This document shows, in pieces, positions 24,001 through 30,000 of a stretch of 54,025 nt of DNA. The stretch comes from a virus. Its lineage: Duplodnaviria; Heunggongvirae; Uroviricota; Caudoviricetes. The stretch lies in IMG/VR virus record IMGVR_UViG_2526164690_000030, one strand, 5' to 3'. The position numbers were made by a program. The first letter of the stretch is position 1, and the number at the start of each line of letters is the position of its first letter.

Positions 24001-27000
24001 TGATGCCCTAATGGACGAATCATTAGGCAAGCCAGATAACAGAATCCATGCCGCGCCACCAGGGCCTGACAGGGCTAATTTTCGAAGTGCTACTCCACAT
24101 GGATTCGCAAAGGCAGTTTTCGAAGCGAATAAGGGGGTGCTCTATGAGTAAATCTATAGCAAGCATAGCCATAGAAAAACAGGATACGATGGCTGAAATT
24201 AGCTATATGCGCACCATTCGGACTCCGGATGAATATGAGCGTCCGATATTCAAATGGGTAGGTGGTAAATTCTCAGAATTGCCTACAGTGCTTGAGCATC
24301 TACCACACGGTAAGCGGTTAATAGAACCATTCGTTGGTGGCGGTTCCGTATTTACGAATGCAGGATTTCGCCACAACCTGCTTAATGATATTAACGGTGA
24401 CCTGATTAACTTCTATCAGACATTGCAGCGAGAAGGACATTCGCTCGTCACGCTGTCATATAGTTTTTTCCAAAATTACAACAACGCTGACGCTTACCTC
24501 GAAGTGCGTGAGGCATTTAACAGAGGAAAGTATGACCAGCTACATCATGCTGCCGCCTTTTTGTACCTTAATCGGCACTGTTTTAATGGCGTAACGCGGT
24601 ACAACCAAAATGGCGAGTTCAACGTGGGGTATGGCAAATACAAAGCGCCCTACTTCCCACATGCAGAGATGGAGGCATTTTTGGCTGATGACGTACTCAA
24701 AAACACGTCCTTTGTATCAGGTGACTTTGCTGGCGTCATCGAGGCGGCTGGTGAAGGCGATGTGATTTTTTGCGATCCGCCGTATGAACCGCTGCCGGAT
24801 ACAGAAGGGTTTACCAGTTATTCAGGAAATAGCTTCCGTTTCGACGAACAGAAACGGCTGGTATCTCTATTGGTGGAAGCCCACCAGCGCGGCGCTAAGG
24901 TAGTGATAACAAATAGTGGTGCGCCAAACATCCGTGAACTATATGAAGGAAACGGGTTTAAAGTACATCATATGGCAGCCAGACGGTCGGTGTCCTGCAA
25001 GGCGTCAACACGTGTAGTTGCTAACGATATAATTGCAATAATGAAGTAAAAAACGCCGCAGTAGCGGCGTTTACTTTTTTATGTGGCGAAATACCTATTA
25101 ACCTAACTTCGCCCAGGTATCACGCAGCCCAACGGTGCGGTTAAATACCGGTTTTTCCGCCGTAGAATGGCGGCTGTCGAGGCAGAAGTAACCTTCACGC
25201 TCAAACTGGAATGCTTTACCCGCAACCGCATCTTTCAGCGACGGTTCAGCAAAGCCCTGTTTGATCACCAGCGATTCCGGGTTAATCACCGACAGGAAAT
25301 CATCCGCAGCACCTGGGTTCGGCACGCTGAACAGACGGTCATACAAACGGATTTCAACCGGCAGCGCATGTGCCGCGCTCACCCAGTGAATAACACCTTT
25401 GACTTTACGACCATCTGCCGGATCTTTGCTTAAGGTATCGGCGTCATAAGTACAGAAGATGGTGGTGATATTACCTTCGGCATCTTTCTCGACGCGTTCT
25501 GCCTTAATCACATAAGCATTACGCAGACGCACTTCTTTACCCAGCACCAGACGTTTGTACTGCTTGTTAGCTTCTTCGCGGAAATCGGCGCGATCAATCC
25601 AAATCTCACCGCTAAACGGCACCTGACGGCTCCCCATTTCCGGTTTGTTCGGATGGTTCGGCATGGTGACCATTTCGCCTTCGCCCTGATAGTTTTCGAT
25701 AACCAGTTTCACCGGATCGATAACCGCCATTGCGCGCGGCGCATTTTCGTTGAGATCTTCACGGATGCAGGATTCCAACGACGCCATCTCAATGGTGTTG
25801 TCCTGCTTGGTCACGCCGATGCGTTTGCAGAACTCACGAATAGAAGCAGCAGTGTAACCACGACGACGCAGACCGGAAATGGTCGGCATACGCGGGTCAT
25901 CCCAGCCTTCAACGTGCTTGTCGGTCACCAGCAGGTTCAGCTTACGCTTGGACATCACAGTGTATTCCAGATTCAGGCGCGAGAATTCGTACTGGCGCGG
26001 GTGAACAGGAATGGTGATGTTGTCCAGTACCCAGTCATACAGACGACGGTTGTCCTGGAACTCAAGCGTACACAGAGAGTGCGTAATACCTTCCAGCGCA
26101 TCGCTGATGCAGTGGGTGAAGTCGTACATCGGGTAGATGCACCACTTGTTGCCAGTCTGGTGGTGTTCAGCAAACTTAATGCGGTACAGCACCGGGTCGC
26201 GCATCACGATAAACGGCGAAGCCATATCGATTTTCGCACGCAGGCAGGCTTTACCTTCTTCAAAACCACCGGCACGCATTTTTTCGAACAGCGCCAGGTT
26301 CTCTTCAACGCTGCGATCGCGGTACGGGCTATTTTTACCCGGCTGCGTCAGGGTGCCGCGGTATTCGCGGATCTGTTCCGGCGTCAGTTCGTCAACATAC
26401 GCCAGGCCTTTGTTGATCAGTTCAACAGCATAGGCATGGAGTTTGTCAAAATAATCGGAGGAGTAACGGATGTTGCCAGACCAGTGAAAACCTAACCATT
26501 CAACGTCGTTTTTAATCGACTCGACGTACTCGATATCTTCTTTTACCGGGTTAGTGTCGTCGAAACGCAGGTTGCACTGGCCTTTATAGTCCTGGGCGAT
26601 CCCGAAGTTCAGGCAGATAGATTTCGCATGACCAATATGCAGATAGCCATTCGGTTCCGGCGGGAAACGGGTATGTACTGTGGTGTGCTTACCACTGGCC
26701 AGATCTTCATCGATGATCTGACGAATAAAGTTAGTCGGGCGGGCTTCTGCCTCACTCATTGTGGATTCCTCAAAGCGTAAACAACGTATAACAGCGTATG
26801 ATCTTATAAGCCGAATAGGCTGACAACCACTAGTTGATTAGAAATTGCTTTCTATCGTTATTTCAATAATGAGCTTTTTCATGAAGCCCACTTTTGCGCA
26901 TAAGTAAATTAATGACAAATGGTACACAATTGGAACCAAAAAGGATGTAAAGGTGCACCAAATTAGTGGTGTATTGGTGCACCTTTGGTTCAAGACTTTT

Positions 27001-30000
27001 TAAGTTCTAAAACCAACCTGAAAGACTTTATTTTGCTTCCTCAGACTCCGCTAACATGAGGATAGCATGGCGGATCATATTCAATTTGCTGCGATTATGC
27101 TTTTTACTTAACGCATCAAGTACTTGGTACTCGTATTCATTGAAACCAACACGAATAGATTTAAAATCACGTGGAGCGTCCTTATCGAGCACTTTGTTGT
27201 CTTCTGGTTGCTCACCCGGCACCAAATCAGCCTTACTGGCAAAATCCTCAATTCGGCGTTCAAGATCAGGGTCTTTTACTTCGGGGGCTTTTACCGATTT
27301 ACGAGGCTTAATCACTTAATAACTCCTTAACCAACATCTGGATTTCACCTTTAGCTTTCCCGTTGTCCATCTCAACAACGCCCTTCCCTTCAGCCATGCA
27401 ATCGCGGTAAACCTTACGATCACGAATGATGGTTTTCAGCAACTTCAGTTGCGGATATTCAGCCAGGTACTCTTTGGCCTCATTGGTTTCATTCACAACC
27501 GGATTGGATGGGGCCATTGTTAAGACTGCGAACGCCTTGATGCTAGGATTAGGCATCAGGTCCAAAGCCTCTTCAAACACTTCAACAAAGTGTGCCAGCG
27601 TGTCTAAATCTGGTTGAGATGGTCTGAATGGGACCAACACAATATCTGCAGCGGTTATGCCTGTACGCATCTCTTTGCTATCGCGCCCGGCTGTATCAAC
27701 AACTACAAATTCATAACGCTTATCCAGATCGAGAAGTGTTTCTCGAATATTACCAAACTTCTGGACACAATGAATTACAGGAGAAACCTCTGCCGTGTTA
27801 CGGTCAGCTGCCCAGCGGGCAGCTGTTCCTTGCTTGTCTGCATCTAGTAACACTACATCCTTATTTTCGCGGGCAAGCTCCGCACAGATGTTTACGCTTG
27901 TGGTTGATTTTCCACAGCCACCTTTTTGGCTGACTACCAATATAATCATATCCGTTCCTCGGTGTGATTTTGGTATCAAAACGGTTCCAGATAAGAGCCT
28001 TTTTGATGCGGGACAGGCTCTATAATGGAGTCATGAATGTTTGGCAAAGTATAACATCAATCAGACCAAATACACCTTATATTGCATCCTATTTAACACG
28101 AAAGCAGCCCAAAATTGGAACCAGATACAAAATTGCACCATAACAGCACCTAACTGGTGCCAGATTAACACCAATTAGACACCATTAAGGCATAAAAAAG
28201 GCTGCAATTTGCAGCCTTAAACCAGCACATCTTCTGTCAATCAGGTAGAGAGTCAGCCAGATTGCGCGCCGACGCGCTTTTGGCAACAAATTGCTCCTTC
28301 ACTGGCTCAATGGAGGCAGGGCGCTCCTCAACCGCAGCTGGTAGTTCCAAGAAGGATGCCAGCATTTTTCGGATCAGCTCCGGGTTATTGTCTTCGGTCA
28401 GCAGGGAAGCCAGTAATCCTGGAAGCCTGCTATCGACTTCTCCCAGCGCAAGCCCTGCCAACAATGCAGTTCTTGCCATATCGCTATGTTTTTTTATCTT
28501 CTCGCTCGCCGCCTTTTCATTGGCATAAGCCTCTGGGCGAAGATAAATCATCACTTTCTTACGTTCCTGAGACATGGACATACCTCGTTAACCGATTGCT
28601 TTCAGGCCATGAACAAGAGCAAGTTGCGGGTCATCCGCCACGAAGAAACGGTCATCACGAATATTAACTTGCTCGCGAATTGCATCTGCCACCAGCGGTG
28701 CGCCACCACCGATCACCATGACATGCGTATATCCTTTAAAGTCGCCAATCACATCAAGAACGCGGGTACGCAGACGGTCAATGCTTGCGGCAATGGCCTT
28801 TTTCACATCACCAATCGCTGATGGGTCATTGATATTGTCGTTCAGATAATCTTCATCGTGGCGGTTAATAATGAGCTGATCAACATTGTAATTTGACGTT
28901 TCGGTATTGGCCCTTGCAAGTGCTTGCCTTACTTCCCTGGTGACCAGTGATACACCAAGATTCGAATCGCCAAAAACACGGGAAACTGCCGTCATTTGTC
29001 CAGCGACCATTGAAACATCAAGGGTAGTTCCACCCAAATCGACGATAAGAACAGAGTGGGCAGGGTTCAGATTGTCGCACAGGCTAATTCCCGCCGGGAT
29101 AGACTCCGGGCGTACCGTAACTTTCTTAATAGTGAATACATTGCCTTTATTCAGCGTGACGGGGCGCATAAGACTGGCTTTCTTGCGCTCGATGTTATCG
29201 AGATTGTATTGCGCGTCGTCGTCGTAAAACTCTGCCAGAGGCAGCGTGACCACAATTTCTACTTCCTGCGGCTCAATACCGCTTGTCAGCAGGGCATGGT
29301 GAACAGCCAGGACGTTAAGCGGGCTGTATTGCCATTCCACATTATTCGTCGGCAGAACATCTGGCGATATCAAGTCGTATGAATACTTTTCGTCGTCAAT
29401 GACATAGTTAAACGGCTTGCCCGCACCAAATGTTGCTGACCATCCGCGCTTAAAGCTGTTAGGGCTGATGTGAGTGCGAGTTTCCCCGTCGTGCTCCCAC
29501 AGCATTTTGATATTGGTTGAACCATCATCGATAAAAATGCGCATCTTCTTGCTCCACTTCTGAGACACATTTGAGAATCAAAATGTAATTTTAAAAGAGA
29601 AGCCCCCAAAAATCCACACCAAACGAGATAAAAAAGGGCGCTTGTTGAGTTTATTTTGAGAATATCTTAATCACCCACCGAATGATGGTCTGATAGTGAG
29701 ATTTATTTGAGAGCGAATTGAGAATACAAAAATATTCCGAAATTTAACTCTCCGTTTGAATGACGAAATAACAAAGTGATGACAATAGAAGGATAACCAG
29801 GAGGTGAAGAATGAGCGCAATAGCCACCAGCGACACCCTTTGTTCTGGTCACGGAGGATTTCCGCCGCGACTGGTAGCTGAAACCGTTCCCTGGTTCACC
29901 GTTAACGGTAAGCCAGTTGTTGTAGATGGTGCCATGTTTCCCAGTCACACTGACGGTAACAGTGCACATCCAGGGGCAGCTGTATCGACGCGAGCATGGT

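What the first reader, a model, noticed from the sequence alone, without database searches (positions are those of the whole stretch)
26921..28180. ParA/ParG operon bracketed by similar ~45-bp repeats, next to a second (ParM/ParR) partition system
Related sequences containing AATTGGAACCA and TGCACCA motifs occur on both sides of the parA-parG operon (about 26925-26990 and 28100-28165), including a palindromic AAAGGTGCACC ... GGTGCACCTTT arrangement. These could be centromere sites on both flanks or the footprints of module insertion. A complete type II ParMR system with parC-like TTGAGA repeats lies immediately adjacent, so the element carries two segregation systems back to back.
Basis: seen in the sequence. 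Interest (0 to 1): 0.4.

Follow-up and report, generated by a model that had tools for sequence, protein, structure and literature searches.

The report
Partition-protein binding arrays flanking parA operon
The two look-alike stretches on either side of the parA operon of phage-plasmid D6 are real arrays of short protein-binding boxes spaced one DNA turn apart. They are most likely the centromere and operator sites of an ordinary, though uncharacterised, plasmid-partition system that sits next to a second (ParM/ParR) system.

Summary
The window is Escherichia phage D6, or a D6-like plasmid prophage (99.9% identity).

Read as two ~45-bp repeats the similarity is only marginal (p about 0.01). 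The strong signal is that both stretches are arrays of R-Y-ACC(A) boxes with AT-rich spacers, in both orientations, phased at 11 bp. They are the two densest box clusters and the longest phased chains in the 54-kb window.

D6-like plasmids whose upstream region is only about 50% identical still carry 9-15 boxes upstream of parA (2.8 expected). They carry 5-7 boxes just downstream of the small gene (1.3 expected), except one with 3. This holds even where glnS is absent.

The operon encodes a type Ib ParA: 43% identical to pB171 ParA, and ParF-like. It also encodes a 95-aa ribbon-helix-helix protein of an unannotated family, which is not Pfam ParG.

More distant relatives carry different boxes on both flanks and a different DNA-reading strand. 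The layout matches TP228 parH/OF upstream and pB171 parC1/parC2 flanking. The adjacent ParMR system with 11-bp TGAGA repeats is intact.

Verdict: a new member of a known kind, of modest interest. Binding and centromere activity are inferred, not shown.

The parts
26921..26991 (.). Array A (parC2-like). It has 7 R-N-ACC boxes in both orientations, about 11-bp phased, 37-107 nt downstream of the orf61 stop. It includes the palindrome 26949-26986. A weaker box lies at 27010-27014.
   Evidence: Retained in diverged plasmids, including those lacking glnS.
26949..26986 (-). Perfect 13-nt inverted repeat built from two GGTGCACC double boxes. On the minus-strand transcript it folds as a 12-13 bp hairpin followed by a U-rich tract, so it may also serve as the operon terminator.
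   Evidence: I8; MFE -31.2 kcal/mol, z -2.96.
27028..27315 (-). orf61: a 95-aa protein with a basic N-terminal tail (MIKPRK) and a C-terminal ribbon-helix-helix domain. It is the putative centromere-binding protein and autorepressor. Its start overlaps the parA stop by 8 nt.
   Evidence: RHH Pfam hits in family members; helices 60-72 and 77-94 in a low-confidence model.
27308..27949 (-). parA: a 213-aa type Ib Walker ATPase with a KGGCGKS motif and no N-terminal DNA-binding domain.
   Evidence: TP228 ParF 4dzz, 1.5e-18; 43% identical to pB171-type ParA.
27961..27987 (-). Three 11-bp-phased boxes in the parA leader, at -14, -25 and -36 from the ATG. They are a putative operator.
   Evidence: (a 3-box chain without skips).
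28048..28076 (-). Putative parA promoter. The extended -10, TGtTATACT, lies at 28056-28048 on the minus strand and is conserved as TGnTAYACT in all D6-like variants. A box (ACACC, 28072-28076) sits at the -35 position.
   Evidence: Read directly from the sequence; the consensus scan did not call it.
28118..28183 (.). Array B (parH / parC1-like distal array). It has 6 boxes. Five are at strict 11-bp phase (28135, 28146, 28157, 28168, 28179), and GGAACCA lies at 28117-28123.
28198..28218 (-). Intrinsic terminator of the parMR operon. It separates that operon from array B.
   Evidence: 9-bp stem plus T-tract; conserved in all variants.
28237..28581 (-). parR/stbB: the type II centromere-binding protein.
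   Evidence: PF10784, 3.4e-11; pB171 ParR 2jd3, 1.1e-6.
28588..29544 (-). parM/stbA: the actin-like segregation ATPase.
   Evidence: R1 ParM, 1e-111; 43% identical to pB171-type ParM.
29561..29723 (+). Type II parC-like region. TGAGA units lie at 29561, 29572, 29646 (TGAGT), 29657, 29697, 29708 and 29719, 11-nt phased within clusters.
30882..30963 (.). Possible third box array C: boxes at 30882, 30893, 30904, 30936, 30948 and 30959, spanning the upfB stop and the intergenic region. Its status is uncertain.
   Evidence: (tied for longest phased chain, 6 boxes, in the whole D6 genome; 1 of 150 shuffles reaches 6). The first boxes are coding, and the second half is absent in L002.

Best explanation
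The stretches at 26921-26991 (A) and 28118-28183 (B) are arrays of binding boxes for the dimeric ribbon-helix-helix protein orf61. Further boxes of the same kind lie over the parA promoter and leader.

The box has a core 5'-R-Y-A-C-C-A-3' flanked by A/T. The full site approximates the palindrome TTGGTACCAA. Boxes occur in either orientation and are spaced about 11 bp apart, so all sit on one face of the helix.

Inferred mechanism:
- orf61 dimers coat the arrays cooperatively.
- The distal upstream array and the downstream array act as centromeres, equivalent to pB171 parC1/parC2 and TP228 parH.
- The boxes at the -35 position and in the leader repress parA-orf61, equivalent to TP228 OF.
- The basic N-terminal tail of orf61 contacts nucleoid-bound ParA-ATP and stimulates its ATPase, so plasmid copies are spaced over the nucleoid.
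- The neighbouring ParM/ParR/parC cassette is an independent, intact type II (pushing-filament) system.

Shown here: the arrays, their phasing, their retention through sequence turnover, the co-variation of box and reading strand, and the protein family assignments.

Inferred, not shown: actual binding, centromere activity of each array, and autoregulation.
For: 1. Density and phasing. Unbiased k-mer enrichment in the flanks of five non-redundant variants gives ACCA 62 against 17 expected, GGTAC 28 against 1.7, and GTACCA, GCACCA and ACACCA 14-16 against about 1. A and B are the top clusters and the longest phased chains in the window. Inter-box distances peak at 11, 22, 33 and 44 bp; 101 of 176 pairs lie within 1 bp of a multiple of 11, against 27% expected.

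2. Turnover with retention. The upstream regions of L003-L005 are only 50-52% identical to D6. They still hold 9-15 boxes in 240 bp (2.8 expected) and 7 in the 115 bp after the stop (1.3 expected). Boxes fall at recurring offsets from the parA ATG: -232, -221, -210, -199, -188, -172, -162, -128, -81, -69, -58, -47, -36, -25 and -14. Plasmids without glnS have an unrelated downstream sequence that again starts with boxes; L002 and L012 have 6 and 5, L011 only 3.

3. Protein. The orf61 family has 124 cluster representatives and conserved K-x-I-R-V-x-F-N-E-Y-E-Y and R-S-K-L-N-x-I-R motifs. Members hit ribbon-helix-helix Pfam families: NikA-like 18 of 52, RHH_1 14 of 52, plus RHH_7, RHH_5 and TraY. 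The strand K52-F58 is invariant among D6-like alleles apart from G/S at position 57, whereas the tail varies.

4. Co-variation. Acinetobacter pACICU1b has ParA 55% identical and the strand KTHTIPM. It carries ACTAAT three times at 11-nt spacing right after the stop, and CTAATTT twice upstream. Metagenomic locus L020 has the strand KSLGIHF and carries GTATTA twice upstream and twice downstream, each pair 11 nt apart.

5. Precedent. D6 ParA is 43% identical to the ParA of a pB171-type double par locus. In that locus the 12-mer TCATAATTATGA likewise occurs both upstream of parA and downstream of parB. TP228 has a distal parH array plus a proximal OF operator, built of degenerate boxes in both orientations with AT-rich spacers (PMC3130281).
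Against: - No binding, stability or incompatibility data exist for this system.
- The AlphaFold monomer model is of low confidence (pLDDT 57.7) and shows the two helices but not the strand.
- The box is short and degenerate, and it was partly defined from the regions that were then tested. The k-mer and whole-window scans reduce this circularity but do not remove it.
- Column-wise conservation of box cores in the alignment of upstream regions is not significant (p=0.07), because boxes shift and flip between variants.
- In more distant relatives the downstream enrichment is weak or absent: Aeromonas L009, Arsenophonus L007 and Serratia L014.
- The array A palindrome could simply be a terminator hairpin.
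- The shuffles used for the chain tests preserved only local base composition, not dinucleotides.
Confidence: 0.75

Rival explanations
1. The boxes are orf61 sites that act only in transcription. On this view the upstream boxes are an extended operator, and array A is the operon terminator and/or an operator for the downstream glnS promoter. The centromere would then be elsewhere, or only upstream.
For: Boxes overlap the -35 position and the leader. The array A palindrome folds into a stable hairpin followed by a U-rich tract. A promoter-like site for glnS lies about 100 bp beyond array A (TTGTCA-17-GATCAT, 26826-26798). In TP228 the operator and centromere are separable arrays.
Against: Plasmids lacking glnS keep a downstream array, and it is followed by a separate canonical terminator (L002, L010, L011, L012). 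The array is therefore neither the terminator nor a glnS operator in those plasmids. The distal array B lies 60-130 bp upstream of the -35 position, which is further than a simple repressor needs. In TP228 and pB171 such arrays are centromeres (own knowledge of Ebersbach and Gerdes 2001 and Ringgaard et al. 2007).
Confidence: 0.15
2. The two stretches are scars or recombination sites left by insertion of the parA-orf61 module, that is, ends of a mobile cassette.
For: The par cassette is mosaic among D6-like plasmids. BLAST breakpoints fall at the borders of the gene pair (hits covering query 251-1439, 1-1199 and 251-1199).
Against: There are no terminal inverted repeats with target duplications and no recombinase in the cassette. 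The stretches are internally periodic (11 bp) arrays of one box, and further copies lie inside the cassette's own promoter and leader. The same design with other box sequences is found in unrelated plasmids.
Confidence: 0.03
3. The TGCACCA / TGGTGCA motifs are binding sites for a host regulator (NtrC-type half sites) that controls the adjacent glnS gene.
For: The TGCACCA and TGGTGCA half sites resemble the NtrC consensus (own knowledge), and a glutamine-related gene is adjacent.
Against: The half sites are 6 or 14 bp apart, not 3. Most boxes are GTACC, ACACC or GAACC. The arrays persist where glnS is absent, and they also lie upstream of parA.
Confidence: 0.02

Closest known systems
pB171 par2 (type Ib ParA/ParB with parC1 and parC2), within the pB171 double par locus next to par1 (ParM/ParR)
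   Same: - A small Walker ParA, 43% identical.
- A roughly 90-aa centromere-binding protein encoded downstream, with an MVK-type basic N-terminus.
- Repeat arrays both upstream of parA and downstream of the small gene.
- A type II ParMR system directly adjacent. ParM is 43% identical, and ParR matches the pB171 ParR structure 2jd3.
   Different: - The small proteins show no detectable sequence similarity (BLASTP E 0.035 in the wrong register; hhalign 1.2%).
- The box sequences are unrelated: TCATAATTATGA / ATCACA-type in pB171, R-Y-ACCA in D6.
- The two operons are in tandem and separated by a terminator in D6. In pB171 they are divergent around a shared parC1.
TP228 parFGH (ParF ATPase, ParG ribbon-helix-helix protein, parH centromere plus OF operator)
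   Same: - ParA resembles ParF (PDB 4dzz, 1.5e-18).
- The small protein has a flexible basic tail followed by a C-terminal ribbon-helix-helix domain.
- The upstream region has a distal array and a promoter-proximal array of degenerate short boxes, in direct and inverted orientation, with AT-rich spacers (PMC3130281).
   Different: - orf61 is not a ParG family member.
- The box is R-Y-ACCA at 11-bp spacing rather than ACTC at 8-bp spacing.
- D6 has an additional array downstream of the operon. TP228 parH is described only upstream.
R1 / pB171 par1 ParMRC (type II), for the neighbouring cassette
   Same: ParM matches R1 ParM at 1e-111. ParR belongs to the StbB family. Phased 11-bp repeats lie upstream of parM.
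   Different: The repeat sequence (TGAGA units) and cluster layout (2+2+3) differ. The cassette sits in a phage-plasmid next to a type Ib system, in tandem orientation.

Membership tests
Type Ib (small ParA plus ribbon-helix-helix centromere-binding protein) partition systems | A small Walker-type ParA (about 200-230 aa) with a deviant Walker A motif and no N-terminal DNA-binding domain | tested here: met
   213 aa with KGGCGKS. Hits Pfam CbiA, AAA_31 and MipZ. NCBIfam ParA_partition scores 162.8, below its cutoff of 180. Matches ParF 4dzz at 1.5e-18 and is 43% identical to pB171-type ParA.
Type Ib (small ParA plus ribbon-helix-helix centromere-binding protein) partition systems | A small centromere-binding protein with a ribbon-helix-helix fold, encoded immediately downstream of parA | tested here: met
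   The gene overlaps the parA stop by 8 nt. Family members hit RHH Pfam families (NikA-like 18 of 52, RHH_1 14 of 52). The profile aligns to CopG and to the ParG strand in the correct register but at weak scores. orf61 alone gives no Pfam hit, and the AlphaFold model is of low confidence.
Type Ib (small ParA plus ribbon-helix-helix centromere-binding protein) partition systems | A cis-acting array of short repeats next to the operon that is bound by the small protein and confers partition | tested here: inconclusive
   The arrays are present, significant, phased, retained through turnover and co-varying with the protein. Binding and centromere activity cannot be tested with these tools.
ParG family (Pfam PF09274, TP228 ParG) | Sequence membership in the ParG family | tested here: not met
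   orf61 has no Pfam hit. ParG is not among the 25 families listed for the 52 family members at E up to 1. hhalign against ParG 1p94 gives 5.6% probability. No PDB sequence hit was found.
pB171 ParB family | Sequence similarity to the pB171 par2 ParB | tested here: not met
   BLASTP E 0.035 with a non-homologous register; hhalign 1.2% probability.
Type II ParMRC partition systems (the neighbouring cassette) | An actin-like ParM, a ParR adaptor, and an upstream repeat array (parC) | tested here: met
   ParM hits StbA_N and the ParM C-terminal domain, and R1 ParM at 1e-111. ParR hits Plasmid_stab_B and 2jd3. TGAGA repeats lie at 11-nt phase upstream of parM. Function was not tested.

The most novel reading that the evidence does not exclude
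orf61 may bind three phased arrays: A, B and a third one, C, at 30882-30963 beyond the ParMR cassette and upfC/upfB. Pairing or looping between them, as pB171 ParB pairs parC1 and parC2, would enclose the whole ParMR system in one higher-order complex. That would physically or regulatorily couple the two segregation machines of a phage-plasmid, and it might also gate expression of the phage-borne glnS.
Probability: 0.1. Interest if true: 0.55.

Novelty: new member of a known kind. Interest (0 to 1): 0.3.

Why it matters
It gives a concrete, testable centromere and operator map for the type Ib partition system of D6-like phage-plasmids: the box consensus, the coordinates and the promoter. These elements are common in E. 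coli, Salmonella and Shigella; 132 PLSDB records match this locus.

It also assigns a function to the 'hypothetical' orf61 and to a family of about 124 clusters of unannotated small proteins.

It adds another example of the 'arrays on both flanks' design known from pB171. It also shows how binding arrays are kept while the surrounding sequence turns over.

It does not reveal a new kind of mechanism. Carrying type Ib and type II systems together is already known to be common: 971 PLSDB accessions (PMC13245405).

Tried and rejected
- The stretches as one long repeat pair. The alignment is only marginally better than shuffles, so the '45-bp repeat' description was dropped in favour of box arrays.
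- ParG or pB171 ParB membership of orf61. Rejected by Pfam, PDB and hhalign.
- A known RNA element in or around the arrays. Rfam gives no match at E up to 0.1 over 26600-31100.
- NtrC-type sites. Rejected on spacing and box variants.
- Insertion scars. Rejected (see rival explanations).
- Column-wise conservation of boxes in an alignment of diverged upstream regions. Not significant (p=0.07). Per-variant enrichment was used instead.
- Word-indexed homologue search. It found only close relatives. The exhaustive HMMER search was needed to reach the wider family.
- Papers not held in the library: the D6 genome paper (Gilcrease and Casjens 2018) and Ebersbach and Gerdes 2001. What they say about these genes is taken from the GenBank notes, from citing papers, or from my own knowledge.
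- pB171 by accession. It is not in the collections. A plasmid with an identical ParR fragment (L016) was used as a proxy.
- The chain algorithm gives slightly different chain lengths on the two orientations of the same DNA. Array B scores 5 in the window orientation and 3-4 in the D6 record orientation. This is an artefact of how palindromic double boxes are merged.
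Full report
**Identity of the window.** The 3-kb stretch around the finding is 99.9% identical to Escherichia phage D6 (NC_050154, 56884-59924, reverse strand). It also matches 132 'non-mobilizable' plasmids of about 90 kb from E. coli, Salmonella and Shigella, that is, D6-like plasmid prophages related to P1.

All genes in the region lie on the minus strand. In transcription order:
- type II parC-like repeats, about 29561-29723
- parM/stbA, 29544-28588
- parR/stbB, 28581-28237
- a strong intrinsic terminator, 28218-28198
- a 287-bp intergenic region
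- parA (orf60), 27949-27308
- orf61 (95 aa), 27315-27028, overlapping parA by 8 nt
- a 268-bp intergenic region
- glnS, 26759-25098

In GenBank, orf60 is annotated 'ParA-like?' and orf61 'hypothetical'. A later paper lists cop, parA, stbB and parM as 'a partition system' without analysing any sites (PMC6799933).

**Checking the observation.**
- AATTGGAACCA occurs at 26928-26938 and 28113-28123.
- GCACCA occurs at 26955 and 28135.
- A perfect 13-nt inverted repeat, AAAGGTGCACCAA/TTGGTGCACCTTT, lies at 26949-26961 and 26974-26986.

Treated as two long repeats, the stretches align only modestly. The best local score is 24, against 16.5 ± 2.3 for shuffles. Ten of 1000 shuffles and 2 of 475 other window chunks do as well.

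The real signal is finer-grained. Both stretches are arrays of a short box.
- Array B, written in an 11-nt register, reads AAATTGCACCA / TAACAGCACCT / AACTGGTGCCA / GATTAACACCA / ATTAGACACCA.
- Array A holds GTACC, GAACC, two GGTGCACC double boxes, ACACC and GAACC, in both orientations.
- The two arrays are the two densest clusters of RCACCA or RMACCA in the 54-kb window.
- They are also the two longest 11-bp-phased box chains. A has 6 boxes. B has 5 without a skip. In 200 composition-preserving shuffles the no-skip maximum was 2 or 3, reached 4 once, and never reached 5.

**What the box is.** Unbiased k-mer enrichment was run on the flanks of five non-redundant variants against the rest of the window. 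It returns ACCA (62 against 17 expected), GGTAC (28 against 1.7), and GTACCA, GCACCA and ACACCA (14-16 against about 1), as well as ACCAAA.
- A position matrix gives W-n-n-n-R-Y-A-C-C-A-W-W-W. The base after ACC is A in 65% of boxes and never C. The flanks are 73-88% A/T.
- The fullest sites (TTGGTACCAA, TTGGAACCA, CTGGTGCCAG) are palindromic. That is what a two-fold symmetric ribbon-helix-helix dimer would be expected to read. Many sites keep only one half.
- Distances between boxes peak at 11, 22, 33 and 44 bp. Successive sites therefore lie on one face of the helix.

**Comparative evidence.** D6-like plasmids carry several alleles of this cassette (orf61 76-97% identical), and BLAST hits break at the gene borders.
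- The 246-bp upstream regions of L003-L005 are only 50-52% identical to D6.
- Every variant nonetheless holds 9-15 boxes in the 240 bp upstream of parA (2.8 expected).
- Most hold 5-7 in the 115 bp after the orf61 stop (1.3 expected); L011 holds only 3.
- Boxes recur at the same offsets from the parA ATG. The distal set is at -232, -221, -210, -199, -188, -172 and -162. One box is at -128. A proximal set is at -81, -69, -58, -47, -36, -25 and -14.
- Between the sets, an extended -10 element, TGnTAYACT, is conserved in all variants (window 28056-28048, minus strand). The -128 box (28072-28076 in D6) sits where the -35 element would be.
- Plasmids that lack glnS (L002, L010, L011, L012) have an unrelated sequence downstream of orf61. 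That sequence again begins with boxes and is followed by a separate canonical terminator.

Retention of boxes through sequence turnover, and next to different neighbours, argues for selection on protein binding. It argues against insertion scars, against a mere terminator and against a glnS-specific operator.

**The proteins.**
- ParA is a 213-aa Walker ATPase without an N-terminal DNA-binding domain. It is ParF-like (PDB 4dzz, 1.5e-18) and 43% identical to the ParA of a pB171-type par2 locus. That makes it type Ib.
- orf61 has no Pfam, NCBIfam or PDB sequence match of its own.
- An exhaustive profile search finds 124 cluster representatives, nearly all 55-160 aa long. They share an M-x-K-R-R start, an IExFA helix and the block LDPxAxRxFKxIRVPFNEYEY...GRSKLNxIRxAI.
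- Of 52 members scanned, 18 hit NikA-like and 14 hit RHH_1/CopG. Others hit RHH_7, RHH_5 and TraY. The profile aligns to CopG, and to the ParG beta-strand, in the correct register but at weak scores.
- The family is therefore ribbon-helix-helix with a flexible basic tail, the architecture of type Ib centromere-binding proteins (PMC3074162). It is neither a ParG nor a pB171 ParB family member.
- Among D6-like alleles the predicted reading strand is invariant apart from G/S at position 57, while the tail varies. That fits the constant box.

**Co-variation in distant relatives.**
- Relatives with the same I-R-V strand (Serratia, Chimaeribacter, Aeromonas, Arsenophonus) show GGTRC/GYACC-type boxes close to parA. 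Some also show them after the small gene, but the enrichment there is weak or absent.
- Acinetobacter pACICU1b has ParA 55% identical and the strand KTHTIPM. It instead carries ACTAAT three times at 11-nt spacing directly after the stop codon, and CTAATTT twice just upstream of parA. Four of the five CTAATTT copies in that 4.2-kb locus lie in the two flanks.
- Metagenomic locus L020 has the strand KSLGIHF. It carries GTATTA twice upstream and twice downstream, each pair 11 nt apart.
- The design 'phased boxes on both flanks' therefore recurs, with a box that changes when the reading strand changes.

**Comparison with known systems.** The layout combines two characterised precedents.
- In TP228, a distal parH centromere and a promoter-proximal OF operator are both arrays of degenerate boxes, in direct and inverted orientation, with AT-rich spacers. 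Both are bound by ParG dimers (PMC3130281).
- In pB171 par2, ParB-binding arrays lie upstream of parA (parC1) and downstream of parB (parC2), as stated in PMC4270457. Both serve as centromeres that ParB can pair (own knowledge of Ebersbach and Gerdes 2001 and Ringgaard et al. 2007, and PMC3074150).
- A plasmid carrying a fragment identical to the pB171 ParR of structure 2jd3 (L016) shows this layout. The 12-mer TCATAATTATGA occurs on both sides of its parA-parB pair.
- pB171 also has a ParMR system next to par2. D6 ParM is 43% identical to that ParM, and D6 ParR matches 2jd3.
- D6 differs in three ways. The two operons are in tandem and separated by a terminator, rather than divergent around a shared parC1. 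Its small protein is unrelated in sequence. Its box is different.
- Co-occurrence of RHH-type I and type II systems is common: 971 PLSDB accessions (PMC13245405).

**Most likely mechanism (inferred).**
- orf61 dimers cooperatively coat arrays A and B, which act as centromeres.
- Boxes at the -35 position and at -14, -25 and -36 in the leader repress the operon.
- The basic tail of orf61 stimulates nucleoid-bound ParA-ATP, which leads to equal spacing of the plasmid copies.
- ParMR/parC acts independently.
- The array A palindrome may additionally terminate the operon's transcript.

My confidence that the boxes are orf61 sites is about 0.85. My confidence that both flanking arrays are centromeres is about 0.65.

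**A possible third array.** A further phased cluster lies at 30882-30963, spanning the upfB stop and the intergenic region. It ties with array A for the longest phased chain in the complete D6 genome; 1 of 150 shuffles reaches the same length. It shares AAAAGGATGTAA with array A. However, its first boxes lie in coding sequence and its second half is missing in L002, so it remains a lead only.

**Verdict.** The system is an uncharacterised member of the well-known type Ib class sitting beside a type II system. It is useful annotation, of modest novelty.

Noticed in passing
window 30882-30963: A possible third 11-bp-phased array of the same boxes: ACACC 30882, GAACC 30893, ACACC 30904, GTACC (minus strand) 30936, ACACC 30948 and GAACC 30959. 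It lies at the upfB stop and upstream of orf55, and it shares AAAAGGATGTAA with array A. It ties with array A for the longest phased chain in the whole D6 genome, but it is partly coding and only partly present in the L002-type plasmid.
   Followed up: partly
window 25098-26759 (minus strand): A full-length glutaminyl-tRNA synthetase gene (glnS) is carried by the phage-plasmid directly downstream of array A. It is present in some D6-like plasmids and absent in others (L002, L010, L011, L012).
   Followed up: partly
window 26949-26986 (minus-strand RNA): The box palindrome folds into a 12-13 bp hairpin followed by a U-rich tract (MFE -31.2 kcal/mol, z -2.96). It may double as the terminator of parA-orf61. 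Plasmids without glnS have a separate canonical terminator after their array.
   Followed up: partly
window 28048-28056 (minus strand), and the same place in L002-L005: A conserved extended -10 element, TGnTAYACT, lies about 95-103 nt upstream of the parA ATG, with a box at the -35 position. The generic promoter scan did not call it.
   Followed up: partly
loci L002-L005 and L010-L012 against window 26780-28240: The par cassette is mosaic among D6-like plasmids. BLAST matches break at the borders of the parA-orf61 gene pair. The upstream region together with parMR, and the downstream region, are exchanged independently.
   Followed up: partly
window 29561-29723: The type II parC-like region has TGAGA units at 29561, 29572, 29646 (TGAGT), 29657, 29697, 29708 and 29719. 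They form clusters of 2, 2 and 3 with 11-nt phasing inside each cluster.
   Followed up: partly
L015 (Acinetobacter baumannii pACICU1b) 1326-1356 and 2237-2266; L020 834-851 and 1771-1787: Distant members of the same ParA / ribbon-helix-helix pair carry different 11-nt-phased boxes (ACTAAT / CTAATTT, and GTATTA) on both flanks of the operon.
   Followed up: partly
window 23399-25049: Two DNA methyltransferase genes, one of them Dam-family, lie next to glnS. D6 annotates them as similar to the C-terminal half of P1 dmt and to a phage methyltransferase.
   Followed up: no
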